A stretch of 64,000 nt of DNA from Longispora sp. K20-0274 (GCF_047121295.1 NZ_CP139447.1:3298665-3362664); one strand, 5' to 3'; positions 46,208 through 63,749 are shown, numbered from the stretch's first letter. The notes: a model not told the origin generated them from the sequence alone. Program-made: numbers and translations.

Positions 46208-46564
46208 ATACCACAGCGGATGCGGTCCGGCGTCCTCATCGGACGGGGTGCGCGGCCCGACCCACGTGGGCGGCGGCGACGGCGCGGTCGCCGACCCGGT
46301 CCTCGGAGGCGGGGTCGAGGGCCGCGAGGTCGGCGTCGATCCGCTCGGCGTCGCGGTCGGTGACGGCGGGCCCACTGCCGGCGAGCCGGGGGAGCGGGCG
46401 GGTGACGCGGTTGTGCTGGGCCTGGAGGGCGTAGCCGACGAGGGCCAGAAGGGCGAGGCTGACGAGTACGGTGCTCATGGCTCTAAGTATTCGCCCATCA
46501 ATTTCCCGCCAACAGTGGCAGGATTGCCGTTGTGCATCAAAATCCTGCCAGCTAGGCTGGGGGC

Positions 46565-47518
46565 ATGTTGAGGACCATCGCAGTCGTGATCATGGACGGG
46601 GTCGCGCCGTTCGAGCTCGGCCTGTTGTGCGAGGTCTTCGGCGTCGACCGCTCCGACGACGGCGTGCCGAGGTTCGACTTCCGGGTGTGCGGCGAGCGGG
46701 CCGGCGAGCCGCTGCGCTCCGGGGTGGGCATGCTCGTCACCCCCGAGCACGGGCTCGACGCGCTCGCCGGCGCGGACCTGGTCGCGGTCCCCGCACACGG
46801 CATCATCGACGACTACCCGCCCGCCGTGCTGGCCGCGCTGCGCGCCGCCGCCGACCGGGGCACCACCCTGGTGTCGGTGTGCAGCGGGGTGTTCGTCCTG
46901 GGCGCCGCCGGCCTGCTCGACGACCGGCCGTGCACCACGCACTGGCGGCACGCGGAGGAGTTGGCCCGCCGGTTCCCGGCCGCCAAGGTCGACGCCGACG
47001 TGCTGTTCGTCGACGACGGCACCCTGGTCACCAGCGCCGGCACGGCGTCGGGCATCGACGCCTGCCTGCACGTCGTCCGCCGCGAGCTCGGCTCCGGGGT
47101 GGCCAACGCCATCGCCCGGCGGATGGTCGTCGCGCCGCAGCGCGAGGGCGGCCAGCGCCAGTTCGTGGAGCTGGCCATCCCCGAGTGCACCGGCGACAGC
47201 CTCCAGCCCCTGCTGGCCTGGATGCTGGAGCACCTGGACACCGAGCACTCCGTGGCCGACCTCGCGCACCGGGCGATGATGTCCGAGCGCACCTTCGCCC
47301 GCCGGTTCGCGGCCGAGACGGGCACCACCCCGGGGCGGTGGATGGCGTTGCAGCGGGTGCTGCACGCCCGCCGGCTGCTGGAGGAGACCCAGCTGTCCGT
47401 CGAGGAGGTCGCGCACGTCTGCGGCTTCGGCACCGCCGCGCTGCTCCGGCACCACTTCCACAAGATCGTCGGGGTGGCGCCGAAGGACTACCGGCGCTCG
47501 TTCGCCAGCACGCCGTAG
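46565..47518 (+). CDS. GlxA-family transcriptional regulator (DJ-1/PfpI domain + AraC-type HTH)
   Basis: N-terminal class I glutamine-amidotransferase-like domain (...VSVCSGVF...) and two C-terminal AraC HTH helices. Confidence 0.8.
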   Translation: MLRTIAVVIMDGVAPFELGLLCEVFGVDRSDDGVPRFDFRVCGERAGEPLRSGVGMLVTPEHGLDALAGADLVAVPAHGIIDDYPPAVLAALRAAADRGTTLVSVCSGVFVLGAAGLLDDRPCTTHWRHAEELARRFPAAKVDADVLFVDDGTLVTSAGTASGIDACLHVVRRELGSGVANAIARRMVVAPQREGGQRQFVELAIPECTGDSLQPLLAWMLEHLDTEHSVADLAHRAMMSERTFARRFAAETGTTPGRWMALQRVLHARRLLEETQLSVEEVAHVCGFGTAALLRHHFHKIVGVAPKDYRRSFASTP

Positions 47519-48534
47519 GCCACCAGGCAGTGCCAGAGCTGCTTGACGTACTGCAGGGTCTCCGCCCGGGTGCCCCACTCCGCCCACAGGTCCGGGTCCG
47601 TGACCACGGACCGGGCCGCGTGGCCGAGCACGGCGGCGTCGAGCACGCCGGACGGTGCGTGGTCGCCGAGGATCCGCGCGGCCAGGGGCCGCATCACCGG
47701 ACCCCGGAATTCGACGGGTACCTCGTCCGCCGTCAACGTGAAGCCGCCGTGCCACTCGACCCCGATCCCGCACCGGTCGGCCAGCACGACCAGGAGCTTC
47801 CCGGTCTCCGTGCCGTCGAACGACGGGTCGAGCACCAGTGCCTCGGCGTCGGCGGCCAGGTCGACGGGCCCGTGCACCTGGGCCTCCACGTAGTCGTCCA
47901 GCGCCCTGCCGGGCGCCTGCGCGGGGTCGACGCCGGACCGCGCGGGCAGGGCCAGCAGGTGGGCCACCGGGTCCACGCCCGGCACGCCCAGCATGGCCTC
48001 CGTCGCGCCCCCGACCAGCCCGGCCAGGACGTCCTCGAACGCGTCGATCGTGCCCAGGTCCGTCGGCCCCGTATGGCTGTCTCCGTGGCAGAACGTGGCC
48101 CGCTCCGACACCGCCGCCCGCAGCCGGACGTGGCACGAGCCGAACCGGGGCGCGGCCCCGTCCGGGTGCCCCATCAGGTCCAGCGCGCCGTAGGTCGGCC
48201 GGTCCGCCACGCGGACGCCCGGGGCCTGGTACGCCCCGCCGAACAGCCGCTCCTCCCAGCGGTCGCGGTCGCCCCCGGGATACGCCGTCAGGCCGCCGTT
48301 GGACACCCCGGTCTCGAACTGGCTGCGGTACCGGCCGTCAGACGCCAGCCCCTCGGCCACGGTCCGCCCGTCGGCGAGCAGCCGGTCGGGGTGGAAGTTG
48401 AGCGTGATCCGGCCGTGGGCGCGGACGGCTGCGAGCAGCGCGGCGGAGTCGGGGAGCGCGCGGTCGCGGCGGACGGTGGAGCGGACGTGGTCGAGGGCCG
48501 CGCGCTGGGCGGCGGTCAGTGGGGTGGGCTGCAC
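47488..48534 (-). CDS. DUF3626 domain protein (unknown function); last gene of the minus-strand lanthipeptide operon
   Basis: Conserved DUF3626-like core (...RITLNFHPDR..., GGAYQAPG...). A GTG at 48534 was chosen; an upstream ATG at 48699 would add a Pro-rich low-complexity extension. Confidence 0.5.
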   Translation of the reverse strand: MQPTPLTAAQRAALDHVRSTVRRDRALPDSAALLAAVRAHGRITLNFHPDRLLADGRTVAEGLASDGRYRSQFETGVSNGGLTAYPGGDRDRWEERLFGGAYQAPGVRVADRPTYGALDLMGHPDGAAPRFGSCHVRLRAAVSERATFCHGDSHTGPTDLGTIDAFEDVLAGLVGGATEAMLGVPGVDPVAHLLALPARSGVDPAQAPGRALDDYVEAQVHGPVDLAADAEALVLDPSFDGTETGKLLVVLADRCGIGVEWHGGFTLTADEVPVEFRGPVMRPLAARILGDHAPSGVLDAAVLGHAARSVVTDPDLWAEWGTRAETLQYVKQLWHCLVAYGVLANERR

Positions 48535-48631
48535 CCGGGAAGTATCGGCGCGGTCCGGTACCCCCGGCAATCGGTTTGTCCGCCGCCCCCCCGGAGCGGG
48601 CAGGGGCGGCCGCCCGCGGCCGGTGGACGGT

Positions 48632-49852
48632 TCAGGTGCCGGCGGTCGCGGGCCGGGCGACGCCGATGCGGACCAGGTCCGTGACCAGCTCGGTCGCATC
48701 GGCGGCGTCGAGTCCGGGCACGAGGTCGGCGGCACACCACGGTTCCGGGTCGTCGGCGGTCAGCAGTGCCGCAACGACGGCGGCGGCCGGCTCCTCGAAC
48801 TCGACGGTGAACGCGCCGAGGTGCAGCCGGAGCCCGCCGCCGTCGAGTGCGGTGACCCCGCAGACCGCTTCGGCGACCGTGCGCACCGGGGTGTCCTCGG
48901 CCAGGCCGGGCAGGATCGCCGCGGTGGCGGCCGGGGTGCGCGGTTCGAGGAAGAACCTCCGGTAGGCGTCGGCCATGACCTCGGCGTCGGCGGCCGGATC
49001 GAGGCTGTTCAGGGCCGCGCGGAGCTGCGCGACCGTCGTGGCGACGGCCCTGGCTCGGAGGCGGGGGTCGGCGCAGAATCCCCACGGGACCTCCGCGCGC
49101 AGCTCTTCGACGGCGTCGAGCCGGGCGAGGAGCTGTGTCGCGATCCAGTGGCCGGTCAGCGCGGGGAAGGCCAGACTCAGGTGCAGTGAGTGCTCGTCGG
49201 TGGCGAACCCGTTGTGCACCCAGCCGCGGGGGATCCACAGCGCGTCCCCGACACGGAGCACGGTCTCCAGTTGGGGGGTGCCGTGGCGCAGTCGGGCCCA
49301 ATCCGCGTCGGAGACCCGCTCGGCGCGGAACGGCTGGTGTTCCAGCGGATCGGTGAGCACCGGGGCGTGCACCTGCCACGTCTTACTGCCGGAGGTCTGC
49401 ACGATCAGGACGGCATGCGTGTCGTGGTGGTGGGCGAAGCCCTGGCTGCCGGCCGGGGTGAGGTAGGCGTTCGCGCCGACCGGCAGGCCGGTCTCCCAGC
49501 TCAGGCGGCGGCACAGGTCGCCCACCGGTGGCCAGGTTCGGTGGAGCGACTCCAGCACCACGGTCGAGCCGTCGCGCAACAGGGTGGTGAGCCGGGCCGG
49601 GCGGACCACGTCGGCGAATCCGGGCTGGACAGGTCTGCCCGACCAGGTGTAGGTGCCGCCGGGCACCCGTCGGCCGTCGGTGACCACGCTGACCATCTGC
49701 CGGTGCAGCGACCCGTGGTCGAGCAGCGCGTCGACGTCCGCGAGACAGAACGGCGGCGGGGCCGGCAGCGACCAGATGGCCGGACGCCGGGGCGGAGCGG
49801 CGAGAAAGCCGGCGGGATCGGGTACGAGCCCCGACAGGGCGGTCAGGCGCAT
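48632..49852 (-). CDS. JmjC/cupin-4 family 2-oxoglutarate/Fe(II)-type oxygenase (putative peptide hydroxylase)
   Basis: HxD...H iron facial triad candidates (FAHHHDTHAV ... WVHNGF) in a cupin fold. GAGGAG RBS lies 6 nt upstream. The start overlaps the MFS stop by 10 nt. Confidence 0.7.
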   Translation of the reverse strand: MRLTALSGLVPDPAGFLAAPPRRPAIWSLPAPPPFCLADVDALLDHGSLHRQMVSVVTDGRRVPGGTYTWSGRPVQPGFADVVRPARLTTLLRDGSTVVLESLHRTWPPVGDLCRRLSWETGLPVGANAYLTPAGSQGFAHHHDTHAVLIVQTSGSKTWQVHAPVLTDPLEHQPFRAERVSDADWARLRHGTPQLETVLRVGDALWIPRGWVHNGFATDEHSLHLSLAFPALTGHWIATQLLARLDAVEELRAEVPWGFCADPRLRARAVATTVAQLRAALNSLDPAADAEVMADAYRRFFLEPRTPAATAAILPGLAEDTPVRTVAEAVCGVTALDGGGLRLHLGAFTVEFEEPAAAVVAALLTADDPEPWCAADLVPGLDAADATELVTDLVRIGVARPATAGT

Positions 49853-51087
49853 CGTCTGCTCCTCAGGGGTTGTCCGGCGTGCGCCGGTGCGGGTGCGGTC
49901 AACTGGGCGCGCACGGGACCCACGGTGCAGAGCGCGGCGCACAGGCCCAGACAGGCCGCCATCGTGCCGTAGCCGGCCTGCGGGCCGAACCGTTGCAGCA
50001 GCCAGCCCATGGTGACGAAGGCGAACGGGTAGAGGACGGAGCCGATCAGGGTCATCGAACTCTGGGCGCGGCCCATCAGGTCGTCGGGCACCAGTCGGTA
50101 GGTGTGCGCGGTGAGCGCGATGACGAGGACCGGGCCCATCGCGGACAACAGGGCCAGCCCGACGGCCGTCGGGACCGGGTACGGCGCCACCGCCACGAAT
50201 GTCGTCACGGCGACGGCGCCGACGCCGCTGGTCAGCACGGCGGTGTACGGCCGGTCGGTGACCAGCCGGGGGGCCAGGGCCGCGCCGACCAGTGCTCCGA
50301 CGGAGACCGTGCCGGCCAGTACCCCGATGAGGGTCGGTGTGGTGCCGTGTGCCCGCAGCATCGGCACCAGGCCGAAGAACGCACCGGCGGTGGCGAAGTT
50401 CAGCACCGACGACCAGACGGTGACGACGCGCAGGAACGGCTGACCGGCGACGAACCGCAGGCCGGTGCCGATGTCGGCGAGCATGCCACCGGCCGAACGC
50501 GGCGCCCCGCCGCCGAGGTCGCCGCCGATCCCGGCCACCAGCACCGCGCACGCGACGAACGTCGCCACGTCGAGGACGAAGGGAGCCCACGGCCACAGCG
50601 CGAACAGCGCCCCGCCGATCGCCGGTCCGAGGAGTCCGGCGGCGTAGGTCCGGGTCTCGTTGAGCGACACCGCCCGGGTGAGCTGGTCCGACCCGACCAG
50701 CGCGCGGAGCGCCCCGCCCAGCGACGGGTTGTACACGGAACTGACGAGGCCGTCGAGACCCGCGATCAGGAGCAATGGCCACACCGCGCGCGCCCCGGTG
50801 GCCAGCATGACCGCCGGGCCGGCCCACAGCACCGCCTTGACGAGGTCGACCCGGATCATGACGGTGCGCCGGCGCCACCGGTCGGCGAGGACGCCGGCCG
50901 GCAGCCGGGCCACGTTCAGCACGACGAGCCTGACGGTGGCCAGACCACCGGCCGCGACCGCCGAGCCGGTCAGGTGCAGGAGCAACAGCGGCAGGCAGAT
51001 GTCGCTGATCCGGGAGCCGAGCGCCGACAGCGCCTGGCCCCACCAGAACCGACCGAAGTCGCGGTTGCCCCGCAGCAGGCCGGTCAT
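49843..51087 (-). CDS. MFS transporter (putative exporter)
   Basis: 12-TM major facilitator pattern. The ATG overlaps the stop of the upstream flavoprotein gene as ATGA. Confidence 0.75.
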   Translation of the reverse strand: MTGLLRGNRDFGRFWWGQALSALGSRISDICLPLLLLHLTGSAVAAGGLATVRLVVLNVARLPAGVLADRWRRRTVMIRVDLVKAVLWAGPAVMLATGARAVWPLLLIAGLDGLVSSVYNPSLGGALRALVGSDQLTRAVSLNETRTYAAGLLGPAIGGALFALWPWAPFVLDVATFVACAVLVAGIGGDLGGGAPRSAGGMLADIGTGLRFVAGQPFLRVVTVWSSVLNFATAGAFFGLVPMLRAHGTTPTLIGVLAGTVSVGALVGAALAPRLVTDRPYTAVLTSGVGAVAVTTFVAVAPYPVPTAVGLALLSAMGPVLVIALTAHTYRLVPDDLMGRAQSSMTLIGSVLYPFAFVTMGWLLQRFGPQAGYGTMAACLGLCAALCTVGPVRAQLTAPAPAHAGQPLRSRRCA

Positions 51088-51629
51088 CCGGCTGCCCGCC
51101 ACTGCGCCTCGACGATCTTCGCGGTGCCCGAGGGGCCGGGCATGGCATGGCTGTCGCCGAACTCGCCGTTCCACAGGGTCAGGACGGTGGTCGGTTCCGG
51201 GGAGACCACCACGACCCCGCGCTCCCTCAGGCCGCGCACGGCGGCCTGCGTGGTCCGGGCCCGCCACATCGTCGGGTGCATGTGGGGGAAGAGAACGACC
51301 GGGGCGGGCGTGGCCAGCACGGCCGTGAGCGCGGGCGAGTTGGCCAGCCCCAACGCGGCGGACACCACGAAATTGGCCGTGGCGGGGGCGACGACCAGCA
51401 GCCGGGCGGTGTGCGCGAACGCGACCGGGTTGAATCCGGTCGCGTTCGGCTCGACCACCTCGTCGGCCAGCAATCGGATAGCGGTCGGCTGCACGAACGT
51501 CAGGGCGGCCGAGGTGAGCAGGACGGTGGTGGGCACCGGGAGCCGCCGCCGCCAGGCGGTCAGGTGCGCGGGCAGTTCGAGGGCCGCGCTGGCGCCGGTG
51601 CACACCACCGCCAACCGGTCAGCGGGCAT
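51084..51629 (-). CDS. lanD: HFCD-family flavoprotein, peptidyl-cysteine decarboxylase (LanD/EpiD/MicD-like)
   Basis: Flavoprotein fold (LAVVCTGASAALELP..., VVAPATANFVVSAALGLANS, PAPVVLFPHMHPTMW) typical of homo-oligomeric flavin-containing Cys decarboxylases. The start overlaps the lanKC stop by 11 nt. Confidence 0.75.
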   Translation of the reverse strand: MPADRLAVVCTGASAALELPAHLTAWRRRLPVPTTVLLTSAALTFVQPTAIRLLADEVVEPNATGFNPVAFAHTARLLVVAPATANFVVSAALGLANSPALTAVLATPAPVVLFPHMHPTMWRARTTQAAVRGLRERGVVVVSPEPTTVLTLWNGEFGDSHAMPGPSGTAKIVEAQWRAAG

Positions 51630-54204
51630 GGCCGACCCCGACGCCCGACCAGCCGTACCGCAGGTCCAGGGTCCGACCGCCGGTGGCCAGGCGGCGCAGC
51701 GCCAGGGCGATGCCCGCCGAGCCGGTCGCGAGGTCGCAGCTCAGCCGCAGCAGCCCGTCGCCGGGGAACGCCACGCCGTCGGGTCCGGGTCGGCGCAGCG
51801 CCACGATCTGCCCGACGAGGCCGGCCAGAGCCTCGTCGACGGCCGGGTCGCCGGGCAGCACGTCCCGGCAGTCCAGCAGGAACTCCACCAGGCCGGTCAT
51901 CCCGGAGAACAGCCCCGGATTGACGGTGAACGGCATGGCCACCCCGCGCACGATCGAGCCGAGGGTCGTCGTGAGCCGTTCGTCGCCGGTGACCGCGAGC
52001 CGCCGGGCCACGGCCATGCCGACGCCCGCTCCGCCGCGCAGGAGGTACGGCTCGTACGCCGTGGCCCGCGCGTACGCGCCAAAGCCCAGGCCGCCGTTGC
52101 GCCGGAGCCGGCCGCGTTCGAGGTCGAAGGCCAGCGCCCGGCCGCCGAGTCGCAGCAGGCGGTCGTCGCCGGTCCGCGCGCCCAGTTCGGTGAGGAAGCC
52201 CGACACCCCGGACGATCCGTGCAGGTAGCCGAGCGGGTGCCGCGCGGTGTCCGTGGGCCACCACAGTCCCGTGCCGTCATCCTCGGCCTCGCCGGTCAGC
52301 CGGGCGGCGACCTCCGTGGCCAGGTCCGTCCAGGAGCCGTCGCCGGTCGCGTCGGCCGCCGCGAGCAGGCCGAGCCCGACGCCGGCGCGTCCCGTGGCCA
52401 CCCCGGCCGGTAGCTTGCCGTCGACCGCCCGGCGCGCCGCGTCGCGCAACAGTGCCGTGCCCCGGTCGGTCTCGCCGGCCTCGAGGATGGTGACGGCGAT
52501 GCCCGTGGCGCCGACGTACAGTCCGGCGGGAAGCGCGGGGTGCTCGTCGAGCCGGGCCAGCAGCCAGTCGAGTGCCACCGGATCGGCCACGCCATCGAGG
52601 AGCAGCAGGGCGCGCAGGACGCCGGCGGCTCCGTAGGCCACCGACAGCGGATTCGTGCGGAACAGCTCCGGGTGGGCGGGGAAGAGCCGGTCGGCGCGGT
52701 GGGGGGTCGCCGCCGATCGCAGGTGCCGGACGACCCCGTCGACCAGCTCGGGTGGCGTGGGCGCCGGGCCGTCGTCGGCGGCGACGCCGGGGGCACCGCG
52801 CTCCAGGACGGCCAGCAGGTCCCCGAGCGGGCGGTCCAGCGCGGCGGCGGTGTGCCGCAGGGTGCGCCCGAACACGCCCGGGTCCAGGCCCAGCAGCGCG
52901 TTGCGGGGAACGACGCAGGCCGCCTCGACGGCGGCGACGGAGAACCGCAGGTAGTCGTGGTCCACGCCCCATGCCGGTGAACCGACCTCCGGCGCGAACC
53001 CCAAGGTCCGGGGGTACCCGGCGGGGTCGTCTCCGGCGGGACGGCAAGCCTCGAAGTCGACCAGCCGCACCGTGTCGTCCTCGTCGACGAGGATGTTGGT
53101 GAGGGACAGGTCGCCGTGCACGACGCCATGGTCCGCGCAGGTCCGCACGGCGGCGGCGAGCTGCGTGAGCAGACCGTCGACCCTCCGGTTGTACGCGGCG
53201 ACCGTGTCGCGATCGGTGAATCCGCGCGCGAAGGGGTGGTGCCGCGCCAGCCACACCTGCAGAGTGATCCCGGGGACCAGGCTCTGCACGAGGAACGTGT
53301 GCTCCCACAGCCGGGTGAGCTCCACGGCCGCCGGCGCGACCCCGGTGCCGGCCAGGTCCAGCAGGAAGGCGTGCTCCCGGTGCAGCCGTTCGACCGCGTC
53401 GGACCCGTCGGGGGCGAACGCCGTGTGCGGCCGGGCCTCCTTGAGTACGACGTCGCGACCGTCGGGCCCGGTGGCCAGGTACACCCCGCCGGCTGTGGAG
53501 TGGCGCAGGACGGACCGGACCCGGTACCTGGTCAGCAGGTCACCACCGGTCGGTTCCGTCCCCGGCGGGAAGGGGTCCTCGGTGACCCACGGCGGCAGCG
53601 TGAACCGGGGGGTGCGCGCATCCGTCCACGCGGTCCCGTCCGGGCCGGTCACCGTGGCCGTGACGTGCCCGTCGGCATCGACGCCGGCCGGCCGGCGCAC
53701 CGTGCCGTACCGGTACTGCACCGTGCCGCTGCCCGGGTAGCGCCGGTCGGTCAGGATGTGCGGCCCCGCGAACCCGTCGAGGCGGTGGGCCAGCCGGTCG
53801 GCGAGCTCGCGGGCGTGCCCGACCGAGGTGGGGTACACCGTCACGGCCTTTCCCGCCCCGCCCCTCGACCACCAGCGGCTGAGCTGGGCGACGGCGAGCT
53901 CCGTGGACCGCACGCACTTGAAGCTGAACGGGCCCTCGAGGTACTCGTCGACGACCGCGTCCACCACGGCCAGCACGTCGGCGGGCCGGCAGGACACGTG
54001 CAGTTTCCAGCCGTGCGCCGGCAACTGTGACATGGGCTGGGCCAGGCACCGGACCCAGATCCCCATGGCCGAGACCGCGCCGGTGTCACCGAGGCGGTCG
54101 CGCACCAGGTCACGCAGGTCGGCGGTGTCGGGCCCGTGGTCGATCCGCTCGTAGTACAGCGGATCGGCGATCGCGTAGGCCCGCAACGATTCGATGATGG
54201 ACAC
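51619..54204 (-). CDS. lanKC: Class III lanthipeptide synthetase LanKC (N-terminal lyase, central Ser/Thr kinase, C-terminal zinc-ligand-free LanC-like cyclase)
   Basis: Lyase-domain N-terminus (...GWKLHVSCRP...) and a kinase core (VVHGDLSLTNILV ... VDFE). The C-terminal cyclase domain has GYLHGSSG and NPGLFSGMTG where LanC/LanM enzymes carry WCHG and CHG, so the Cys-Cys-His zinc site is absent. A GTG at 54204 is preceded by GGAGGA. The track shows a 1294-aa ORF whose first ~430 aa are antisense low-complexity artefact. Confidence 0.85.
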   Translation of the reverse strand: MSIIESLRAYAIADPLYYERIDHGPDTADLRDLVRDRLGDTGAVSAMGIWVRCLAQPMSQLPAHGWKLHVSCRPADVLAVVDAVVDEYLEGPFSFKCVRSTELAVAQLSRWWSRGGAGKAVTVYPTSVGHARELADRLAHRLDGFAGPHILTDRRYPGSGTVQYRYGTVRRPAGVDADGHVTATVTGPDGTAWTDARTPRFTLPPWVTEDPFPPGTEPTGGDLLTRYRVRSVLRHSTAGGVYLATGPDGRDVVLKEARPHTAFAPDGSDAVERLHREHAFLLDLAGTGVAPAAVELTRLWEHTFLVQSLVPGITLQVWLARHHPFARGFTDRDTVAAYNRRVDGLLTQLAAAVRTCADHGVVHGDLSLTNILVDEDDTVRLVDFEACRPAGDDPAGYPRTLGFAPEVGSPAWGVDHDYLRFSVAAVEAACVVPRNALLGLDPGVFGRTLRHTAAALDRPLGDLLAVLERGAPGVAADDGPAPTPPELVDGVVRHLRSAATPHRADRLFPAHPELFRTNPLSVAYGAAGVLRALLLLDGVADPVALDWLLARLDEHPALPAGLYVGATGIAVTILEAGETDRGTALLRDAARRAVDGKLPAGVATGRAGVGLGLLAAADATGDGSWTDLATEVAARLTGEAEDDGTGLWWPTDTARHPLGYLHGSSGVSGFLTELGARTGDDRLLRLGGRALAFDLERGRLRRNGGLGFGAYARATAYEPYLLRGGAGVGMAVARRLAVTGDERLTTTLGSIVRGVAMPFTVNPGLFSGMTGLVEFLLDCRDVLPGDPAVDEALAGLVGQIVALRRPGPDGVAFPGDGLLRLSCDLATGSAGIALALRRLATGGRTLDLRYGWSGVGVGHAR

Positions 54205-54221
54205 GCTTCCTCCCCTGGGGT

Positions 54222-54246
54222 GGGGCCCGGAGCGGATCCGGGCCCC
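54222..54246 (-). promoter_or_regulatory. Stem-loop (10-bp GC stem GGGGCCCGGA/TCCGGGCCCC, 5-nt loop) between precursor gene and lanKC; candidate attenuator/processing site
   Basis: Perfect inverted repeat seen in the 55-nt spacer between the precursor stop and the lanKC start. No U-tract follows it. Confidence 0.4.
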
Positions 54247-54259
54247 GTGAGCGGTCGGA

Positions 54260-54358
54260 CTAGCAGCCGTAGCTGACGCCGCTGCCGTCGGTGTCGGGCG
54301 AGACGTACTCGGCCGTCTCGTCGTTCTCGATGACCTGCAGGTCCAGAACCTCTGCCAT
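54260..54358 (-). CDS. lanA: Class III lanthipeptide precursor peptide, 32 aa: MAEVLDLQVIENDETAEYVSPDTDGSGVSYGC
   Basis: This ORF is absent from the supplied track because it is shorter than 60 aa. AAGGAG RBS lies 6 nt upstream of the ATG. The leader carries the class III (I/L)(L/F)(D/E)LQ recognition motif as VLDLQ. The core ends in S-x-x-S-x-x-C with a C-terminal Cys, a labionin/avionin-type motif. It lies immediately upstream of lanKC on the same strand. Confidence 0.75.
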   Translation of the reverse strand: MAEVLDLQVIENDETAEYVSPDTDGSGVSYGC

Positions 54359-54436
54359 GACGATCTCCTTCGGTGATGTCGGGAGCCGAGGTGTTCGGCC
54401 CCGGCGGACTCGGGCTCGCCGAGCCACGGACAACAG

Positions 54437-54467
54437 CTCACCAGCGGATATCGACCCGCCGCTATGG
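54437..54467 (-). promoter_or_regulatory. Candidate sigma70-like promoter for the precursor operon (TTGCCG - 18 nt - CGATAT on minus strand)
   Basis: Hexamer-like elements seen ~90 nt upstream of the precursor ATG in the divergent intergenic region. Weak, unverified. Confidence 0.2.
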
Positions 54468-54550
54468 GTATCGGCAATGCGGGGGTCCGGCCCTCGGCGC
54501 CGGGTGGCGGCGGTGACCCGCCGACCCGGGAATCTGGGTGCTGAGCACGC

Positions 54551-57500
54551 ATGCGCGCCGGCCGGACAGCGGGCATGCTGTCGTGCATGGACGGTGACGG
54601 GCGCGCGGGGACGGAGCGGTGCTGGTGGGCGCGCGGGCTGACCCTGACCGAACGGCCGACGCCGGCCCCCGGGCGGGTCGTCGCCGGGGACGCCGACCGG
54701 GCGGCCCGCAGGCTGGCCCGGTGGCGCACGGTGTTCCCGACCGGCGAGGCGTTCGGTGCCCGGCTCGCCGCGGCCGGCATCGACGAGAATGTCCTGGCGC
54801 TGCTGCTGGCCGAGGACGCCACCTCGCTCGCCGGCCGGGTCGACCGGCCCGACTGGGCCGGCTTCGCCGAACGGGCCGCCCAGCTGGCCCGGCCACCGAC
54901 CGGGCGGGAATTCACCTGGGAGGACGGGTTCGGCGCCATCGTCGGCCCGTTCGCGGAGCTGGCGGCCCGTGAACTGCTGGCCGCCGAGCCGGGACTGCGC
55001 GACCTGCGGGCCGGCTTCACCGCCCAGACCAGGGGGCTGCTGACGCGCCTGGCCCGCCGGACACTGGTCCTGGAGCTCAACGTGTACCGGGTGTCCGGCC
55101 GCCTCGACGGGGCCATGCCCCGTGACCGGTTCGCCAGCTTCGTGCGCCAGCTGTGCACCAGGGAGGGACTCACCGCGCTGATCGAGGAGTACGCGGTGCT
55201 GGCCCGGCTGCTGGCCCAGGCGTGCCTGCAGAACGTGACCGCCTGGGTGGAGCTGTACGGAAGGTTCACCCGGGACCGCCCCGCCATCGTCGCCGACCTG
55301 CTGGGCGCCGTCGAACCAGGTCCGTTGGTGGAGATCGCCTCCGGCGCCGGTGACCGGCACCGGGGCGGCCGGTCCGTGGCGGTGCTGAGGTTCGCCGACG
55401 GCGCGCGGGTCGTGTACAAACCCCGACCGGTGACCGCGCACGCCCTGTTCAACTGTGCCGTGCGCTGGCTCAACGCGCGGATGCCGGGGCCGGCCCTCCC
55501 CACGCTGGCTCTGCTGTCGCGACCGTCCCACGGCTGGGTGGAGTTCGCGGCCCACGCGCCGTGCCGGGACCGCGACGGGGTCGACCGGTTCTACCGCAGG
55601 CAGGGCGCGACCCTGGCCCTGCTGCACGCTCTGGACGCCACCGACATCCACCACGAGAACCTCGTGGCCCGTGGCGACGAGCCGGTGCTGGTGGACCTCG
55701 AGACCCTGCTGCATCCGACCCTGCCGGTCCCCGGACCGCGCGCCACGGACCCGGCGGCCCGGGCGATGGACTCCTCGGTGTACCGAACGGCCCTGCTGTC
55801 CCTGCCGGTGGTCGGCGACCACGGCATGATCGACCTGTCCGGCCTCGGCGCGGACAAGGGGGCTTTGAGCCCGCTGGACGGGGTCGGCTGGGGCGCGCCC
55901 GGTACCGACGAGATGCGGCTGGTCCGCCGGCAGGAGACCTTCGAGGGCTCGGACAACCGTCCCCGGCTCGACGGACGCGACGCCGATCCGGCGGCGTACA
56001 CCGCCAGCCTGCTCTCCGGTTTCCGCGACGCGTACCAGGCCATCGCCTCGGGTCGGGCCGAACTCGTCGGTCCCGACGGGCCGTTGGCCGCATCCGGGGG
56101 TGCCGACCTGCGGGTGGTGGTCCGACCCACCCGGGTGTACGCGACGCTGCTCGACGAGTCGACCCACCCCGACGTGCTGCGCGACGCCCTCGACCGGGAC
56201 CGGCTGCTGGACACACTGTGGGCGGACTCGACCGGCGCCGCGCTGTGGTGGCAGGTGGCCGGCGCGGAGATCGCCGGCCTGTGGGCGGGCGACATTCCGC
56301 TGTTCGACACCAGGTCGGACTCCCTCGCCCTGGCTTCGGGCGGGTTCACCCTCGACGGGGCACTCGACGCCACCGGCGTGCGCCGGGTCTCCGCCAAGCT
56401 CGCCGCGCTGGGCGGGCCGGACCAGTACGACCAGGAATGGATCATCCAGGCCGCGCTCGCCACCCGCGCACCGCTGCCCGAGCACCGGCCGGGGCGGTCC
56501 GGCGCCCATCCGCACGCGACGACGGTGCCCGACCGCGACCGGCTTCTCGCCTCGGCCTGCGGCATCGCCGACCAGTTGGTCGCGATGGCCTTCGAGGACG
56601 ACCACCACGCGAACTGGCTGGGCCTGGAGCCCGTCGACGACCGGCACTGGATGGTGCTGCCTCAGGGCGCGGGCCTGGCCCACGGGTACTGTGGCACCGC
56701 GCTCCTGCTCGCCCAGCTGGCGGGGATCACCGGGACCGCCCGGTACGCGCGGCTCGCCCGCAGGGCGGTGTGCCCGATTCCGAACCTGCTCGACCACCTC
56801 GCCCGGCACCCCGAACAGGCCGCGGCGGTCGGCTGCGGCGGATTCGCCGGCTTCGGCGGCATCGCCTACGCCCTCAGCCACCTGGCGGCGCTCCTGGACG
56901 ACGGGGAGGTCGCCGGCTGGGTGCCGGGCGCGGTCCGGCTGGTCGCCGGGGCCGCCCACGGCAGCGGGCCGGGCGTGCTGACCGGGGCCGCCGGCGGGGT
57001 GGCCGCCATGCTCGCCGTGCACGCGACAACGGGTTCGGACCTGGCCTGGGACGCGGCGCGGACCTGTGCCGACGCGGTACTGGCAGCCGATCCGGCCGGG
57101 TTGCCCGCCGGATTCGGCACCGGACTCGCGGGGATGGGCTGGGCCCTCGCCCGGTTCGGGGCCTCCGGCGGTGGCACCCGCTACGCCGACGCCGGCCGCG
57201 CGCTGCTGGCCGCGAGCCGTCCGGCGGCGGACGATCCCAGCTGGTGCCACGGCCTGCCAGGCCTGGCGCTCGCCCTGGCCGACCTGGGGGACACACCGGC
57301 GGGCGGGACCGTGGACCGGGCGGTCGGCGCCGTGGCGGCCCGGCCGCCGCTGGACGACCACAGCCTGTGCCACGGCGAGCTCGGCGGCCTGGAGCTGCTG
57401 GTGGAGGCCGCCGCCGGCGGGCACCACGCCGCCAGGGCCGGGCGGATCCCCCGGGCGGGCCTGCTGCTGGCGGCCCTGGACCGCGTCGGCCCTCAGTGCG

Positions 57501-57673
57501 CCACCCCGGGCCTGGTGCCCAGCCCGGGTCTGCTCACCGGGCTGGCCGGGATCGGCTACGGACTGCTGCGGCTGGGCTTCCCCGACCGGACGCCCAGCGT
57601 CCTCCTGCTCAGACCACCCCACGCGCCCGCGACTCGGCCGGGCGCGGTGTCCCTACGACAAGGAGCGACATGA
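54551..57673 (+). CDS. lanM: Class II lanthipeptide synthetase LanM (N-terminal DUF4135 dehydratase domain + C-terminal LanC-like cyclase with intact zinc ligands)
   Basis: Dehydratase/kinase-like motifs DIHHENLVARGDEPVLVDLETLL, and cyclase motifs LAHGYCG, SWCHGLPG, SLCHGELGG (Cys-Cys-His zinc site). Start uncertain; ATG 54551, 54575 and 54587 are all possible. Confidence 0.8.
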   Translation: MRAGRTAGMLSCMDGDGRAGTERCWWARGLTLTERPTPAPGRVVAGDADRAARRLARWRTVFPTGEAFGARLAAAGIDENVLALLLAEDATSLAGRVDRPDWAGFAERAAQLARPPTGREFTWEDGFGAIVGPFAELAARELLAAEPGLRDLRAGFTAQTRGLLTRLARRTLVLELNVYRVSGRLDGAMPRDRFASFVRQLCTREGLTALIEEYAVLARLLAQACLQNVTAWVELYGRFTRDRPAIVADLLGAVEPGPLVEIASGAGDRHRGGRSVAVLRFADGARVVYKPRPVTAHALFNCAVRWLNARMPGPALPTLALLSRPSHGWVEFAAHAPCRDRDGVDRFYRRQGATLALLHALDATDIHHENLVARGDEPVLVDLETLLHPTLPVPGPRATDPAARAMDSSVYRTALLSLPVVGDHGMIDLSGLGADKGALSPLDGVGWGAPGTDEMRLVRRQETFEGSDNRPRLDGRDADPAAYTASLLSGFRDAYQAIASGRAELVGPDGPLAASGGADLRVVVRPTRVYATLLDESTHPDVLRDALDRDRLLDTLWADSTGAALWWQVAGAEIAGLWAGDIPLFDTRSDSLALASGGFTLDGALDATGVRRVSAKLAALGGPDQYDQEWIIQAALATRAPLPEHRPGRSGAHPHATTVPDRDRLLASACGIADQLVAMAFEDDHHANWLGLEPVDDRHWMVLPQGAGLAHGYCGTALLLAQLAGITGTARYARLARRAVCPIPNLLDHLARHPEQAAAVGCGGFAGFGGIAYALSHLAALLDDGEVAGWVPGAVRLVAGAAHGSGPGVLTGAAGGVAAMLAVHATTGSDLAWDAARTCADAVLAADPAGLPAGFGTGLAGMGWALARFGASGGGTRYADAGRALLAASRPAADDPSWCHGLPGLALALADLGDTPAGGTVDRAVGAVAARPPLDDHSLCHGELGGLELLVEAAAGGHHAARAGRIPRAGLLLAALDRVGPQCATPGLVPSPGLLTGLAGIGYGLLRLGFPDRTPSVLLLRPPHAPATRPGAVSLRQGAT

Positions 57674-57867
57674 CCGACACAGATCTGATCAGGTCCTGGA
57701 AGGACCCGGAGTCCCGCGACGAGCCGGCCGCCGACCATCCGGTGGGGGAGATCCGACCCAGGATCGACCTGCGCGCGGGCTCCCGAGTCCTGGCGCTGGT
57801 CGGCATGGCCGGCGTCCTGTTCGCGTCGCTGCCGGGCACCGAGACGACGACCTCGCTGACCGGGTGA
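57670..57867 (+). CDS. 65-aa peptide with class II (LanM-type) leader motif but no cysteine: MTDTDLIRSWKDPESRDEPAADHPVGEIRPRIDLRAGSRVLALVGMAGVLFASLPGTETTTSLTG
   Basis: The ATG overlaps the lanM stop (ATGA) and has AAGGAG 5 nt upstream. The N-terminus carries the (I/L)xxWK(D/N)PxxR leader motif seen in mersacidin/lichenicidin-alpha-type LanA peptides. The C-terminal half is hydrophobic with a TETTTS tail and contains no Cys. Confidence 0.5.
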   Translation: MTDTDLIRSWKDPESRDEPAADHPVGEIRPRIDLRAGSRVLALVGMAGVLFASLPGTETTTSLTG

Positions 57868-57942
57868 GCCGCCGCCGGCCTCCGGGGCCCGCCCGGGCGG
57901 CGGCCCATAGATACTGATCATCATGGACGGTAATCTCGGACC

Positions 57943-60870: not shown

Positions 60871-60872
60871 CC

Positions 60873-61328
60873 TCAGTGCGTGTCCGGGCGTCCCCGGCGC
60901 GCGTGCCGGTCGGCCCGCTCCCGGGCGAGCCGGTGGGCGGAGATGAGCAGGTCCCCGACGGCCTCCGATGTCCGGGGGCCCGGGTTGACGACGGACAGCC
61001 AGTGCAGGGCGCCGTAGACCGGGTGCGGAAAGAGCACGTCGGCGGCGTCGGTCGGCGCGGTGCCCGCCCACTCGCGGAACCGTTCCGCGCCGGCGGCGAT
61101 GTTCAGCCGGAACGCTCCCGGGCGGTCGAGGCGCGAGACGTCGTCGTCGGGATAGTCCTTCGTCACGATGGTGGCGAACGGCTGGGTGTGCGGGACCGTG
61201 CCGTCGGGGGCGTAGTAGAAGAAGACGTCGCCCCAGGCGATCTCGGGTGACCCGTCCCCGGGTCCGGGGGTGAGCACCAGGACCCCGTCCAGGGCGCCGA
61301 TCCGGTCGATGATGTCGTGAATCTCCAT
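60873..61328 (-). CDS. Conserved hypothetical protein (no recognisable catalytic motif)
   Basis: ORF with a plausible ATG at 61328 (MEIHDIIDRIGAL...). Function unknown. Confidence 0.45.
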   Translation of the reverse strand: MEIHDIIDRIGALDGVLVLTPGPGDGSPEIAWGDVFFYYAPDGTVPHTQPFATIVTKDYPDDDVSRLDRPGAFRLNIAAGAERFREWAGTAPTDAADVLFPHPVYGALHWLSVVNPGPRTSEAVGDLLISAHRLARERADRHARRGRPDTH

Positions 61329-61477
61329 ACCTTCCAGCATCACATTGTTGTGCCCTTGGAGACTTCTGCCGGGGCTGCCGGCGAAGTGCGGAGGAAAAGT
61401 CTCAAGCGCGGCGTGCGGTTGGCGGGAGCGTGGCGCGGCGGTCTAGATTTCTGGGTACCGGATACGTGGAGGTCGTC

Positions 61478-62419
61478 GTGCGTGCTGTCGCCGTGTCGGA
61501 GTTCGGAGCGACCCCCGGGGTGGTGGAGCTGCCCTCCCCGGAGCCCGGCCCCGGGCAGGTCCTGGTCCGGATGCGCGCCGCCGGGCTCAACCCGTTCGAC
61601 TGGAAGGTCGGCGAGGGTGCGCTGGACGGCCGGGTGCGGCACCGGTTCCCGCTGGTCCTCGGCTCGGACGGCGCGGGCGAGGTGGCGGGGCTCGGCGCGG
61701 GCGTCACCGGGTTCGCCGAGGGCGACCGGGTGTTCGGCTCCTTCATGCGCCTCGGCGACGGCGGCGGCTCCTACGGCGAGTACGCGGTCGCCGACGCCGC
61801 CGGGCTCGCCCGGATGCCCGACGGGGTGGCGTTCACGGACGCCGCCGCGTTGCCGATGGCCGCGACGACGGCCCTCAACCTCGTGGACGGCGCGCACGTC
61901 TCGCGGAGCCAGACGGTGCTGGTGGTCGGGGCGACCGGCGGGGTCGGCACGTTCGTCGTGCAGCTGGCCGCCGGGCGCGGCGCGCACGTGATCGCCACGG
62001 CCCGCCCCGACGCCGCCGACGCGGTGCTCGCGCTCGGGGCGCAGGAGACCGTGGACCACACGGCGGGTCCGGTGGCGAGGCAGGTGCTGGCCCGGTACCC
62101 GCATGGTGTGGATGTCCTGATCGACGTCGCCAGCGACCATGCCGGCCTGGCGGCGGTGTCGGCGGCGGTCCGCTGGGGCGGGGTGGTCGGGGCCAGCACC
62201 TGGGCCGTGGACCCCGAGGCCCTGGCCGCGCGCGACATCCGGGGCTTCAACCTCGACAACCGGGCCACGGCCGAGCACCTGCGCACCGTGGTCGAGGAGG
62301 TGGCCGCCGGCCGGCTGCGGGTCGCGATCGACAGCGTCGTGCCCCTCGCCGAGGCGCCCGCCGCGCTGGCCCGCAGCCGGGCTGGCTCGGCGCGCGGCAA
62401 GACGGTCATCACGATCTGA
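61478..62419 (+). CDS. MDR-superfamily NAD(P)H:quinone oxidoreductase / zinc-binding alcohol dehydrogenase-like
   Basis: GroES-like N-terminus and a Rossmann motif VVGATGGVGTFVVQLA. A GTG at 61478 was chosen, with GGAGG 6 nt upstream. Confidence 0.75.
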   Translation: MRAVAVSEFGATPGVVELPSPEPGPGQVLVRMRAAGLNPFDWKVGEGALDGRVRHRFPLVLGSDGAGEVAGLGAGVTGFAEGDRVFGSFMRLGDGGGSYGEYAVADAAGLARMPDGVAFTDAAALPMAATTALNLVDGAHVSRSQTVLVVGATGGVGTFVVQLAAGRGAHVIATARPDAADAVLALGAQETVDHTAGPVARQVLARYPHGVDVLIDVASDHAGLAAVSAAVRWGGVVGASTWAVDPEALAARDIRGFNLDNRATAEHLRTVVEEVAAGRLRVAIDSVVPLAEAPAALARSRAGSARGKTVITI

Positions 62420-62456
62420 GGCCGACGGGCACGGAACGCCCGGTGCGGCCCCGGGA

Positions 62457-63677: not shown

Positions 63678-63749
63678 GTCTTCCTCCCCGGGGCGCGCCA
63701 GGTTGGCCTCCCCAGCATGCCACCGGCGCCGGACAACGGGGAGCCTTTT

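What the first reader, a model, noticed from the sequence alone, without database searches (positions are those of the whole stretch)
47488..51087. Unusual tailoring/export set in the class III operon: MFS exporter, JmjC/cupin oxygenase, DUF3626
Downstream of lanD, tightly coupled on the same strand (an ATGA overlap, then a 10-nt overlap), are an MFS transporter and a JmjC/cupin-4 2OG-Fe(II)-type oxygenase. The MFS transporter stands in place of the usual ABC exporter. The oxygenase has a HHHD...H metal triad, and by analogy with CinX-like Asp hydroxylases it could hydroxylate Asp, Pro or Tyr of the core (core contains D, D, P, Y). A DUF3626 protein of unknown function follows ~100 nt later. 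JmjC-type enzymes and DUF3626 are not standard lanthipeptide tailoring components.
Basis: inference. Interest (0 to 1): 0.6.

Follow-up and report, generated by a model that had tools for sequence, protein, structure and literature searches.

The report
Hydroxylase and exporter in lanthipeptide operon
Two of the three flagged genes, a membrane exporter and an iron-dependent peptide hydroxylase, are conserved parts of a compact operon predicted to make a small bicyclic sulfur-bridged peptide; the third (DUF3626) is an unrelated neighbouring gene.

Summary
On the minus strand lie an MFS transporter (49843-51087), a 406-aa JmjC oxygenase (48632-49852) and a DUF3626 protein (47488-48534), with the stated overlaps and a 97-nt gap.

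lanA-lanKC-lanD-MFS-JmjC is a conserved five-gene cassette. I found it in 11 loci: this Longispora window, Kribbella, Micromonospora, an Actinocatenispora MAG and three metagenome contigs. Every JmjC homolog at 52% identity or more for which flanking DNA was retrieved lies in this cassette.

All precursors read end in T-D-[G/A]-S-x-x-S-x-x-C. This is the SxxSxxC + LanD "avionin" motif of lipolanthines, but there are no PKS, NRPS or FAS genes here.

The JmjC protein has an intact HxD...H/Lys site and the full three-domain fold of ribosomal oxygenases (NO66, YcfD). Its genomic context nevertheless marks it as a RiPP tailoring hydroxylase. The invariant Asp is the most likely target (inference).

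DUF3626 is not part of the cluster. A sister Longispora strain has the same flanks with DUF3626 but lacks a 12.9-kb island (48571-61437) that carries the lan genes. The other 10 cassette loci lack DUF3626. DUF3626 is the SopF family (ADP-ribosyltransferase) and is widespread in actinomycetes.

Verdict: a new variant of a known kind, of moderate interest.

The parts
54260..54358 (-). lanA precursor, 32 aa: MAEVLDLQVIENDETAEYVSPDTDGSGVSYGC. It has an LDLQ-type leader and a core ending in T-D-G-S-x-x-S-x-x-C.
   Evidence: GGAG ribosome-binding site, third-position GC 0.94. Weak NCBIfam class III lanthipeptide hit. Orthologous precursors.
51619..54204 (-). lanKC, class III lanthionine synthetase, 861 aa.
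   Evidence: Pfam RamC_N + Pkinase + LANC_like. NCBIfam NF038151, 688.7 bits against a cut-off of 575.
51084..51629 (-). lanD, HFCD-type flavoprotein (predicted peptidyl-Cys decarboxylase), 181 aa. It overlaps the lanKC stop by 11 nt.
   Evidence: PF02441, E 1.4e-13. Weak CypD/CoaC NCBIfam hits, below cut-off. 58-78% identical orthologs in every cassette locus.
49843..51087 (-). MFS transporter (MFS_3/DHA3-like, EntS/Mef-like), 414 aa. ATGA overlap with lanD. Predicted exporter and/or self-protection pump.
   Evidence: Pfam MFS_1/MFS_3. NCBIfam TIGR00900, EntS and MefA hits, all below cut-off. 55-66% identical orthologs between LanD and JmjC in all cassette loci.
48632..49852 (-). JmjC (ribosomal-oxygenase-type) Fe(II)/2OG oxygenase, 406 aa. 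10-nt overlap with the MFS stop. Last gene of the cassette. Predicted leader-dependent peptide hydroxylase.
   Evidence: PF08007. Aligns to the NO66 HxD, Lys and His sites. H142, D144, K157 and H213 are invariant. AF2 model pLDDT 92.7. Foldseek top hits NO66, MINA53, YcfD. Orthologs at 52% identity or more with retrieved flanks lie only in lan cassettes.
48571..61437 (.). 12.87-kb strain-specific island. It carries JmjC, MFS, lanD, lanKC, lanA, lanM, a 65-aa ORF, a LuxR/LAL regulator and DUF6194. The sister strain Longispora sp. NPDC051575 has 205 bp in its place.
   Evidence: blastn of the window against L087: 44702-48570 and 61438-64000 align at 82-84% identity; nothing aligns between them.
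47488..48534 (-). DUF3626 (SopF-family) protein, 348 aa. It is a flanking core-genome gene, not part of the lanthipeptide cluster.
   Evidence: PF12294, E 7e-112. Same AraC/GGDEF/ADH synteny without lan genes in L087. Absent from the other cassette loci. Profile hit to SopF structure 7dn8, E 1.3e-7.
54551..57673 (+). lanM (class II synthetase), transcribed divergently from lanA. Present in only 2 of 11 cassette loci, so probably a separate module.
   Evidence: DUF4135 + LANC_like. TIGR03897, 672 bits against a cut-off of 304. A LanM ortholog only in Kribbella L001.
57670..57867 (+). 65-aa ORF overlapping the lanM stop. It has a mersacidin-like leader motif (IRSWKDPESR), no Cys and a hydrophobic stretch.
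   Evidence: third-position GC 0.92. TIGR03898, E 0.007, below cut-off.
57943..60870 (+). LuxR/LAL-family regulator (AAA_16 + GerE). 42% identical orthologs lie divergent from lanA in both Micromonospora loci, and an ortholog is also present in metagenome locus L092.

Best explanation
The window carries a 12.9-kb island with a compact class III lanthipeptide operon, lanA-lanKC-lanD-MFS-JmjC.

Proposed pathway:
1. LanKC dehydrates the two Ser residues of the C-terminal S-x-x-S-x-x-C motif.
2. LanD oxidatively decarboxylates the terminal Cys.
3. Together these give an avionin-type bicycle (labionin plus aminovinyl-Cys), as in the peptide part of lipolanthines. No lipidation genes are present.
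4. The JmjC enzyme is a ribosomal-oxygenase-fold Fe(II)/2-oxoglutarate hydroxylase recruited to RiPP tailoring. It adds one hydroxyl group to the peptide, most likely at the beta-carbon of the invariant Asp in the T-D-[G/A] motif just before the rings. It may hold the leader peptide with its C-terminal winged-helix domain.
5. The DHA3-type MFS pump exports the product and/or protects the producer.

DUF3626 is a SopF-family, ADP-ribosyltransferase-like core-genome gene. It merely abuts the island and is not part of the pathway.

Shown: gene identities, cassette conservation, an intact catalytic site and fold, the island boundary, and the independence of DUF3626.
Inferred: avionin formation (by analogy with MicKC/MicD), hydroxylation as the chemistry, Asp as the site, leader binding by the winged helix, and export by the MFS pump.
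For: Cassette conservation:
- Every JmjC homolog at 52% identity or more for which flanking DNA was retrieved lies directly after LanKC-LanD-MFS. These are Kribbella x4, Micromonospora x2, an Actinocatenispora MAG and three metagenome contigs.
- The genes after JmjC differ in every genus (DUF1508/Aldedh, acyltransferase, NucS, CNNM). JmjC is therefore the last gene of the cassette.

Precursors:
- The 10 precursors read (9 other loci plus the window) share an LDLQ-type leader and an invariant T-D-[G/A]-S-x-x-S-x-x-C end.
- SxxSxxC plus LanKC plus LanD is the published avionin signature (PMC7540663).

The enzyme:
- HxD, Lys and His align to the NO66 active site and are invariant.
- The AF2 model has pLDDT 92.7. 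Its top fold hits are NO66, MINA53 and YcfD over the full length.
- More distant relatives (41-45% identity) sit in YcaO/TfuA/ThcOx RiPP clusters next to precursor-like ORFs.
- JmjC hydroxylases acting on RiPP precursors have precedents: CzlI (PMC11575548) and BipG (PMC12707348).

DUF3626 and the island:
- The sister strain lacks exactly 48571-61437 but keeps DUF3626 between the same neighbours.
Against: - No product or activity data exist.
- The hydroxylation site is inferred only from residue invariance. T, D and [G/A] could instead be conserved for LanKC, LanD or a protease.
- The fold is that of ribosomal protein hydroxylases.
- The winged-helix domain resembles true RREs only weakly (all Foldseek E > 0.01). 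No PqqD Pfam hit was found.
- The paralog clade outside any gene cluster has the same C-terminal domain.
- LanD scores below the NCBIfam cut-offs.
- A lipid or other modification encoded elsewhere in the genome cannot be excluded.
- DUF3626 lies on the same strand only 97 nt downstream, with no detectable terminator. Only 36 nt of its ancestral upstream region is retained. It may therefore be co-transcribed in this strain.
Confidence: 0.72

Rival explanations
1. One reading: MFS, JmjC and DUF3626 together form the tailoring and export set of the lanthipeptide, with DUF3626 modifying the peptide or conferring immunity.
For: DUF3626 is on the same strand, 97 nt downstream of JmjC, with no promoter or terminator match in the gap. 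The island insertion left only 36 nt of the gene's ancestral upstream DNA, so read-through transcription is plausible. SopF-family enzymes are NAD-dependent transferases (PMC10333799).
Against: None of the 10 other cassette loci has DUF3626 within the retrieved flank. The sister Longispora strain has DUF3626 in identical synteny with no lan genes. More than 3480 homologs exist, including in many Micromonospora species, against about 14 close JmjC homologs. DUF3626 contexts elsewhere are unrelated to lanthipeptides.
Confidence: 0.04
2. The JmjC protein is a housekeeping ribosomal oxygenase (RoxA/YcfD/NO66-like) that hydroxylates a ribosomal protein and lies next to the lan genes by chance.
For: The best sequence and fold matches are NO66, MINA53 and YcfD, with the complete three-domain architecture. 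The C-terminal domain profile hits the Rhodothermus marinus YcfD-like winged helix.
Against: Orthologs are rare and patchy, and those with retrieved flanks always lie inside the lan cassette, often with overlapping reading frames. The gene lies inside a strain-specific island that is absent from a sister strain. A separate paralog clade (33-47% identity) is widespread. It has its own conserved, non-BGC context, next to a ~1000-aa protein that I judged FtsK/EccC-like by eye, in 40 of 58 loci. It co-exists with the cassette-type gene on what appears to be the same chromosome in Micromonospora sp. SH-82 (same strain name and contig length).
Confidence: 0.05
3. JmjC is a cluster tailoring enzyme, but it acts somewhere other than Asp or uses different chemistry. 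Options include beta-hydroxylation of the ring residues (Val/Ile, Tyr/Phe/Leu), modification of the invariant Thr or Dhb, aromatic hydroxylation as in CzlI, or desaturation.
For: JmjC RiPP enzymes have diverse targets: Phe to Tyr for CzlI and Orn for BipG. Streptomyces relatives occur as 2-4 paralogs per cluster, with precursors unlike this one. That suggests flexible specificity. Thr is as invariant as Asp.
Against: The ring positions vary (G/S, V/I/Y, Y/F/L, G/N/T) while the enzyme is conserved. Seven of the 10 precursors read already encode Tyr at the aromatic position, so a Phe-to-Tyr reaction is not needed. No methyltransferase is present to provide a demethylation substrate.
Confidence: 0.25

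Closest known systems
Lipolanthine / avionin systems (MicA-MicKC-MicD of microvionin; nocavionin), PMC7540663
   Same: A class III LanKC paired with a LanD flavoprotein. The precursor has an LLDLQ-type (theta-xx-theta-xx-theta) leader and an S-x-x-S-x-x-C motif at the extreme C-terminus, which is the published signature for the avionin bicycle.
   Different: There are no PKS, FAS or NRPS genes for the N-terminal guanidino fatty acid in the island, and no PKS/NRPS-sized ORF anywhere in the 64-kb window. The cassette adds a JmjC oxygenase and an MFS pump, and the precursor has an invariant T-D just before the octapeptide. The paper lists glycosyltransferases, P450s and ATP-grasp enzymes as tailoring enzymes. 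Searching its main text for 'oxygenase', 'hydroxylase' and 'MFS' found none.
Ribosomal oxygenases (ROX): human NO66 and MINA53, E. coli and R. marinus YcfD/RoxA
   Same: Best sequence matches (NO66, E 1e-16) and best fold matches (E 4e-24, TM 0.64, full length). Shared HxD...H triad and 2OG-binding Lys. Shared layout of JmjC domain, helical domain and C-terminal winged helix.
   Different: The gene is embedded in and translationally coupled to a RiPP operon. Its distribution is rare and patchy, and it lies inside a strain-specific island. Identity to NO66 is only 22-24%. The substrate is predicted to be a 32-aa precursor peptide, not a ribosomal protein.
JmjC hydroxylases of other RiPP pathways: CzlI (curacozole, Phe to Tyr; PMC11575548) and BipG (biphenomycin, Orn hydroxylase; PMC12707348)
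   Same: JmjC-type Fe(II)/2OG enzymes encoded in RiPP clusters that hydroxylate a residue of the precursor peptide. The biphenomycin cluster also uses an MFS transporter.
   Different: They belong to different RiPP classes (cyanobactin-like azole peptide; MNIO/rSAM biaryl peptide). CzlI's closest structure is YxbC (1VRB), whereas this enzyme is NO66-like with an extra winged-helix domain.
CinX (cinnamycin Asp15 beta-hydroxylase) and CanE (canucin A Asp hydroxylase)
   Same: Functional analogy only: an Fe/2OG enzyme hydroxylating an Asp of a lanthipeptide or lasso peptide core (cited in PMC11575548).
   Different: No evidence of homology was obtained. CinX belongs to a class II lanthipeptide cluster, and the enzyme family was not compared here.
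SopF (Salmonella T3SS effector; PDB 7DN8/7DN9), the characterised DUF3626 protein
   Same: The window's DUF3626 protein matches PF12294 end to end (E 7e-112). SopF carries the same Pfam domain (PMC6682159). A 16-sequence actinomycete profile hits the SopF structure at E 1.3e-7. The RPxY and Y-[IV]-E-A-x-x-H-G motifs align and are invariant (Y115, E217).
   Different: It is an actinomycete cytoplasmic protein, not a secreted effector. It has no eukaryotic target and the substrate is unknown. It is not linked to the lanthipeptide genes.

Membership tests
Class III lanthipeptide gene cluster | A LanKC synthetase with lyase (RamC_N), kinase and LanC-like cyclase domains | tested here: met
   Pfam RamC_N E 6e-45, Pkinase, LANC_like. 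NCBIfam NF038151 equivalog, 688.7 bits against a cut-off of 575.
Class III lanthipeptide gene cluster | A short precursor with an LLDLQ-type leader motif and an S-x-x-S-x(2-5)-C core next to lanKC | tested here: met
   MAEVLDLQ...SGVSYGC lies 55 nt upstream of lanKC. The same pattern is seen in 9 further loci.
Lipolanthine (avionin lipopeptide) family | SxxSxxC with Cys as the last residue, plus a LanD decarboxylase partnered with LanKC | tested here: met
   The precursor ends ...SGVSYGC*. A PF02441 flavoprotein overlaps the lanKC stop. Definition taken from PMC7540663. Catalytic activity was not tested.
Lipolanthine (avionin lipopeptide) family | PKS, FAS or NRPS genes for the N-terminal (guanidino) fatty acyl group in the cluster | tested here: not met
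   The island 48571-61437 holds only JmjC, MFS, LanD, LanKC, LanA, LanM, a 65-aa ORF, LuxR and DUF6194. The window has no PKS/NRPS-sized ORFs. None appear among the annotated genes of the Kribbella and Micromonospora loci.
JmjC / ribosomal oxygenase (ROX) family | HxD...H Fe(II) triad and a 2OG-binding basic residue in a JmjC barrel | tested here: met
   PF08007, 82.9 bits against a cut-off of 22. H142/D144/H213 and K157 align to the NO66 motifs FAPHYD, GRKLW and PRGFIH. They are invariant in 20 homologs. The NO66 residue roles are from my own knowledge.
JmjC / ribosomal oxygenase (ROX) family | Three-domain architecture: JmjC domain, helical dimerisation domain and C-terminal winged helix | tested here: met
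   AF2 pLDDT 92.7. Foldseek full-length matches to NO66, MINA53 and YcfD. The C-terminal domain alone matches the NO66 winged helix at TM 0.72, and its profile hits 4csw residues 317-399.
JmjC / ribosomal oxygenase (ROX) family | The substrate is a ribosomal protein | not testable with these tools
   Genomic context argues against it: cassette-only distribution and location inside an island.
RiPP recognition element (PqqD-like RRE) | A beta3-alpha3 winged helix that binds the leader peptide | tested here: inconclusive
   The C-terminal domain has beta-strands followed by three helices. Foldseek lists the PbtF RRE (8t19), TbiB1 (5v1v), TigE, McbB, LynD and TruD among its top hits, but all have E > 0.01 and are interleaved with ROX winged-helix domains. 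No PqqD Pfam hit was found.
DUF3626 / SopF family | A match to PF12294 and homology to the SopF ADP-ribosyltransferase fold | tested here: met
   PF12294, E 7e-112, profile positions 1-301 of 301. Profile hit to 7dn8_C, E 1.3e-7. SopF carries DUF3626 (PMC6682159).
DUF3626 / SopF family | The I-Y-E catalytic triad (PMC10333799) | tested here: inconclusive
   Y115 and E217 are invariant and align to the SopF PIY and YIEAH motifs. The Ile position is Thr or Lys. Mapping these motifs onto the named triad relies on my recollection of SopF numbering.
Lanthipeptide cluster membership of DUF3626 | Co-occurrence with the lan genes in related clusters | tested here: not met
   0 of 10 other cassette loci carry it. 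It is present without lan genes in L087, L088 and L091.
MFS efflux transporter (MFS_3 / DHA3-like) | A match to MFS family models above the curated threshold | tested here: met
   PF07690, 75.3 bits against 33.4; PF05977, 65.5 against 27. The NCBIfam subfamily and equivalog models (TIGR00900, EntS, MefA) are all below cut-off, so no specific subfamily name is justified.
CinX-like Asp beta-hydroxylase | Sequence homology to CinX | not tested
   No CinX sequence was available. The link is a functional analogy only.

The most novel reading that the evidence does not exclude
A ribosomal-oxygenase (NO66/YcfD-type) scaffold has been recruited wholesale into RiPP biosynthesis, and its C-terminal winged helix serves as the leader-peptide recognition element. 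The cassette would then make a previously unseen natural-product type: a minimal, non-lipidated, beta-hydroxy-Asp-bearing avionin peptide of about 10 residues, exported by an MFS pump. This would link ribosomal-protein hydroxylases and RiPP tailoring enzymes in evolution. It would also extend the avionin motif beyond lipolanthines.
Probability: 0.3. Interest if true: 0.65.

Novelty: new variant of a known kind. Interest (0 to 1): 0.45.

Why it matters
Avionin-containing lipolanthines are potent anti-MRSA compounds, and so far they are known only as lipopeptides. This cassette is a compact, portable five-gene version that replaces lipidation with a predicted hydroxylation. It recurs in at least 11 loci, so it defines a small uncharacterised subfamily that is easy to express heterologously.

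It would also be the first class III lanthipeptide with a JmjC tailoring enzyme in the literature I could search. It is an example of a ribosomal-oxygenase-fold enzyme acting on a ribosomal peptide natural product.

There is a practical lesson for genome mining. The cluster boundary falls exactly after JmjC, so DUF3626 should not be included in the cluster annotation.

Tried and rejected
- **Cluster membership of DUF3626:** rejected by synteny.
- **Terminator or promoter in the JmjC-DUF3626 gap:** none found. The spacer folds no better than shuffled sequence, z = -0.84. Co-transcription therefore stays open.
- **Repeats or mobility genes at the island ends:** only chance-level GC-rich matches. 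No integrase or tRNA was seen among the island genes. Whether this is an insertion here or a deletion in the sister strain is not resolved.
- **RRE identity of the C-terminal domain:** no PqqD Pfam hit. The profile hits only the YcfD-like winged helix. Foldseek resemblance to RREs is weak. I kept this as a hypothesis only.
- **TsaJ/ThoJ as JmjC precedents:** rejected. TsaJ is PF05721 (PhyH), per bioRxiv 10.1101/2020.12.17.423248.
- **Metagenome scan with the single protein:** found nothing. The alignment-based scan found two more cassettes.
- **Contig look-ups for P0091 and P0084:** not on record.
- **Literature searches** for class III lanthipeptide + JmjC, avionin, LanKC + hydroxyl/aminovinyl/MFS, and strain K20-0274 found no description of this cassette. 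The supplement of PMC7540663 is not held.

Full report
**1. What is in the sequence**

The window is about 74% GC, so I called genes by third-position GC. It comes from Longispora sp. K20-0274: the JmjC and DUF3626 proteins are 100% identical to that strain's annotated proteins.

On the minus strand, in transcription order:
- lanA, 54260-54358, 32 aa, with a GGAG ribosome-binding site.
- lanKC, 51619-54204.
- lanD, 51084-51629, overlapping lanKC by 11 nt.
- MFS, 49843-51087, with an ATGA overlap.
- JmjC, 48632-49852, with a 10-nt overlap and a GAGGAG site.
- A 97-nt gap, then DUF3626, 47488-48534.

Pfam and NCBIfam confirm each identity. An AraC/DJ-1 regulator converges on DUF3626 and overlaps its 3' end. 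A class II lanM, a 65-aa ORF, a LuxR/LAL regulator and DUF6194 lie on the other side of lanA.

**2. MFS and JmjC belong to the operon**

The closest homologs of the JmjC protein are few. I retrieved their contigs and scanned GTDB genomes and JGI metagenomes with JmjC alignments. Every homolog at 52% identity or more for which flanking DNA was retrieved lies directly after LanKC-LanD-MFS. These loci are:
- Kribbella sp. NBC_01245, K. sandramycini and two further Kribbella;
- Micromonospora fluostatini and M. rosaria;
- an Actinocatenispora MAG;
- three metagenome contigs.

With the window, that makes 11 loci. The gene after JmjC differs in each lineage: DUF3626 here, DUF1508/Aldedh, an acyltransferase, NucS, CNNM. 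JmjC is therefore the terminal gene of a mobile cassette. LanM occurs in only 2 of the 11 loci. A LuxR/LAL ortholog divergent from lanA is present in both Micromonospora loci and in metagenome locus L092.

**3. DUF3626 does not belong**

None of the other 10 loci has a DUF3626 gene within the retrieved flank. DUF3626 has more than 3480 homologs and is found in many Micromonospora species, in Catellatospora and in many Streptomyces.

The decisive comparison is with Longispora sp. NPDC051575. That strain has ADH - DUF3626 - AraC/DJ-1 - GGDEF in the same order and orientation, with no lan genes. In blastn, window 44702-48570 and 61438-64000 align to it at 82-84% identity. The 12,867 bp between them correspond to only 205 bp in the sister strain.

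The island boundary at 48570/48571 falls inside the 97-nt gap between the JmjC stop and the DUF3626 start. Only 36 nt of the ancestral DUF3626 upstream region survives, and I found no terminator. Read-through transcription from the lan operon in this strain is therefore possible, but it would be an accident of insertion.

DUF3626 is the family of the Salmonella effector SopF (PMC6682159), an ADP-ribosyltransferase (PMC10333799). A profile of actinomycete members hits the SopF structure 7dn8 at E 1.3e-7, with conserved RPxY and YxEAxxHG motifs. Its contexts elsewhere do not involve lanthipeptides: a flavoprotein and a thioredoxin-like protein in Catellatospora, and GNAT - DUF3626 - CPT in Streptomyces.

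**4. What the cassette probably makes**

All the precursors read share an LDLQ-type leader and end in T-D-[G/A]-S-x-x-S-x-x-C. SxxSxxC at the extreme C-terminus, together with LanKC and LanD, is the published signature of the avionin bicycle of lipolanthines (PMC7540663).

Lipolanthine clusters carry PKS, FAS or NRPS genes for an N-terminal lipid. This island has none, the window has no PKS-sized ORFs, and no such gene is annotated in the Kribbella and Micromonospora loci. The predicted product is therefore a small avionin peptide without lipid. Avionin formation here is an inference from MicKC/MicD.

**5. The JmjC enzyme**

- It aligns to NO66 across the HxD, Lys and distal His motifs. H142, D144, K157 and H213 are invariant in 20 homologs.
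- The AlphaFold2 model is confident (pLDDT 92.7). Its best PDB matches over the full length are NO66, MINA53 and YcfD (E down to 4e-24, TM 0.64). YxbC, TYW5 and FIH follow. It is thus a three-domain ribosomal-oxygenase-type protein.
- A distinct paralog clade (33-47% identity) is widespread and has its own conserved context. In 40 of 58 loci it lies next to a ~1000-aa protein that I judged FtsK/EccC-like, with a WXG100-like small protein nearby. I assigned these by eye, without a family search. It co-exists with the cassette-type gene in Micromonospora sp. SH-82 (same strain name and contig length).
- Intermediate relatives (41-45% identity) sit in Streptomyces/Kitasatospora YcaO/TfuA/ThcOx RiPP clusters, with up to four paralogs per cluster.
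- JmjC hydroxylases of RiPP precursors are already known: CzlI and BipG. TsaJ/ThoJ are PhyH-family enzymes, not JmjC.

**6. Likely target and recognition (inferred)**

Outside the ring-forming Ser, Ser and Cys, only Thr and Asp are invariant. Beta-hydroxylation of the invariant Asp is the most economical proposal; I put it at roughly 40%. Thr/Dhb or a ring residue remain possible.

The C-terminal domain (residues 305-406; model pLDDT 89.8) has beta-strands followed by three helices. In Foldseek it matches ROX winged helices (TM up to 0.72), interleaved with true RiPP recognition elements (PbtF, TbiB1, TigE, McbB, LynD, TruD). All of these have E > 0.01, and there is no PqqD Pfam hit. A leader-binding role for this domain is an untested idea.

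**7. The MFS transporter**

It passes the MFS_1 and MFS_3 thresholds. It resembles the DHA3, EntS and Mef pumps, but scores below their specific cut-offs. It is conserved between lanD and JmjC in all 11 loci, and the island has no ABC transporter. Export and/or self-protection is the natural role (inference). The biphenomycin RiPP cluster also uses an MFS transporter.

**8. Novelty**

Full-text searches found no description of a class III or avionin cluster with a JmjC enzyme, and nothing on this strain. The library is incomplete. Each component type is known, so this is a new variant of a known kind: an avionin-type class III lanthipeptide cassette with a ROX-fold hydroxylase and an MFS pump, and without lipidation genes. 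I score interest at 0.45.

**9. Caveats**

- There are no experimental data.
- The genome collection holds one genome per species, so locus counts are lower bounds.
- Whether the island was inserted here or deleted in the sister strain is not resolved.
- The NO66 and SopF residue roles rest partly on my own knowledge.

Noticed in passing
window 57670-57867 (+); L001 2093-2344 (-): A 65-aa ORF overlaps the lanM stop codon (third-position GC 0.92). It begins with a mersacidin-type leader motif (MTDTDLIRSWKDPESR; TIGR03898 E 0.007, below cut-off). It has no Cys and contains a hydrophobic, transmembrane-like stretch. Kribbella has an analogous 83-aa ORF after its lanM. It could be an atypical class II substrate or a membrane peptide.
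   Followed up: partly
window 54551-57673 (+): A class II LanM is transcribed divergently from the class III lanA, inside the same 12.9-kb island. It is found in only 2 of 11 cassette loci (Longispora and Kribbella sp. NBC_01245). It is unclear whether it acts on the same peptide.
   Followed up: partly
window 48571-61437 compared with L087 9760-9964: The whole lanthipeptide region is a 12,867-bp indel relative to Longispora sp. NPDC051575. I found no integrase, tRNA or boundary repeats. Only 36 nt of the DUF3626 ancestral upstream region is retained.
   Followed up: yes
L091 5353-7601 (Streptomyces beijiangensis); L088 9379-11092 (Catellatospora coxensis): DUF3626 (SopF-family) genes sit in a tight GNAT - DUF3626 - CPT (chloramphenicol-phosphotransferase-like) run in Streptomyces. 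In Catellatospora one lies next to a divergent PF02441 flavoprotein. The Streptomyces context hints at small-molecule or antibiotic modification rather than protein ADP-ribosylation.
   Followed up: no
L015-L086 (about 58 full-length loci): A widespread actinobacterial JmjC paralog clade (33-47% identity to the query) is conserved next to a ~1000-aa protein. Often a small protein is also nearby. From the sequences alone they look FtsK/EccC-like and WXG100-like, which would be an ESX/type VII-like context. No family search was run on these neighbours.
   Followed up: partly
L004 3529-12696; L010; L013 (Streptomyces): RiPP clusters with YcaO, TfuA, ThcOx and a LanB-type dehydratase carry two to four JmjC_2 paralogs. 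This suggests multiply hydroxylated thioamide or azole peptides.
   Followed up: no
window 54275-54286 (-), core residues D-T-D-G: The Longispora core contains D-x-D-G, the motif I recall as the Ca2+-binding motif of calcium-dependent lipopeptide antibiotics. The first Asp is not conserved in the other precursors.
   Followed up: no
window 47488-47518: The 3' ends of DUF3626 (minus strand) and the AraC/DJ-1 regulator (plus strand, 46565-47518) overlap convergently by 31 nt. The same overlap is present in the sister strain (L087 11041-11068).
   Followed up: partly
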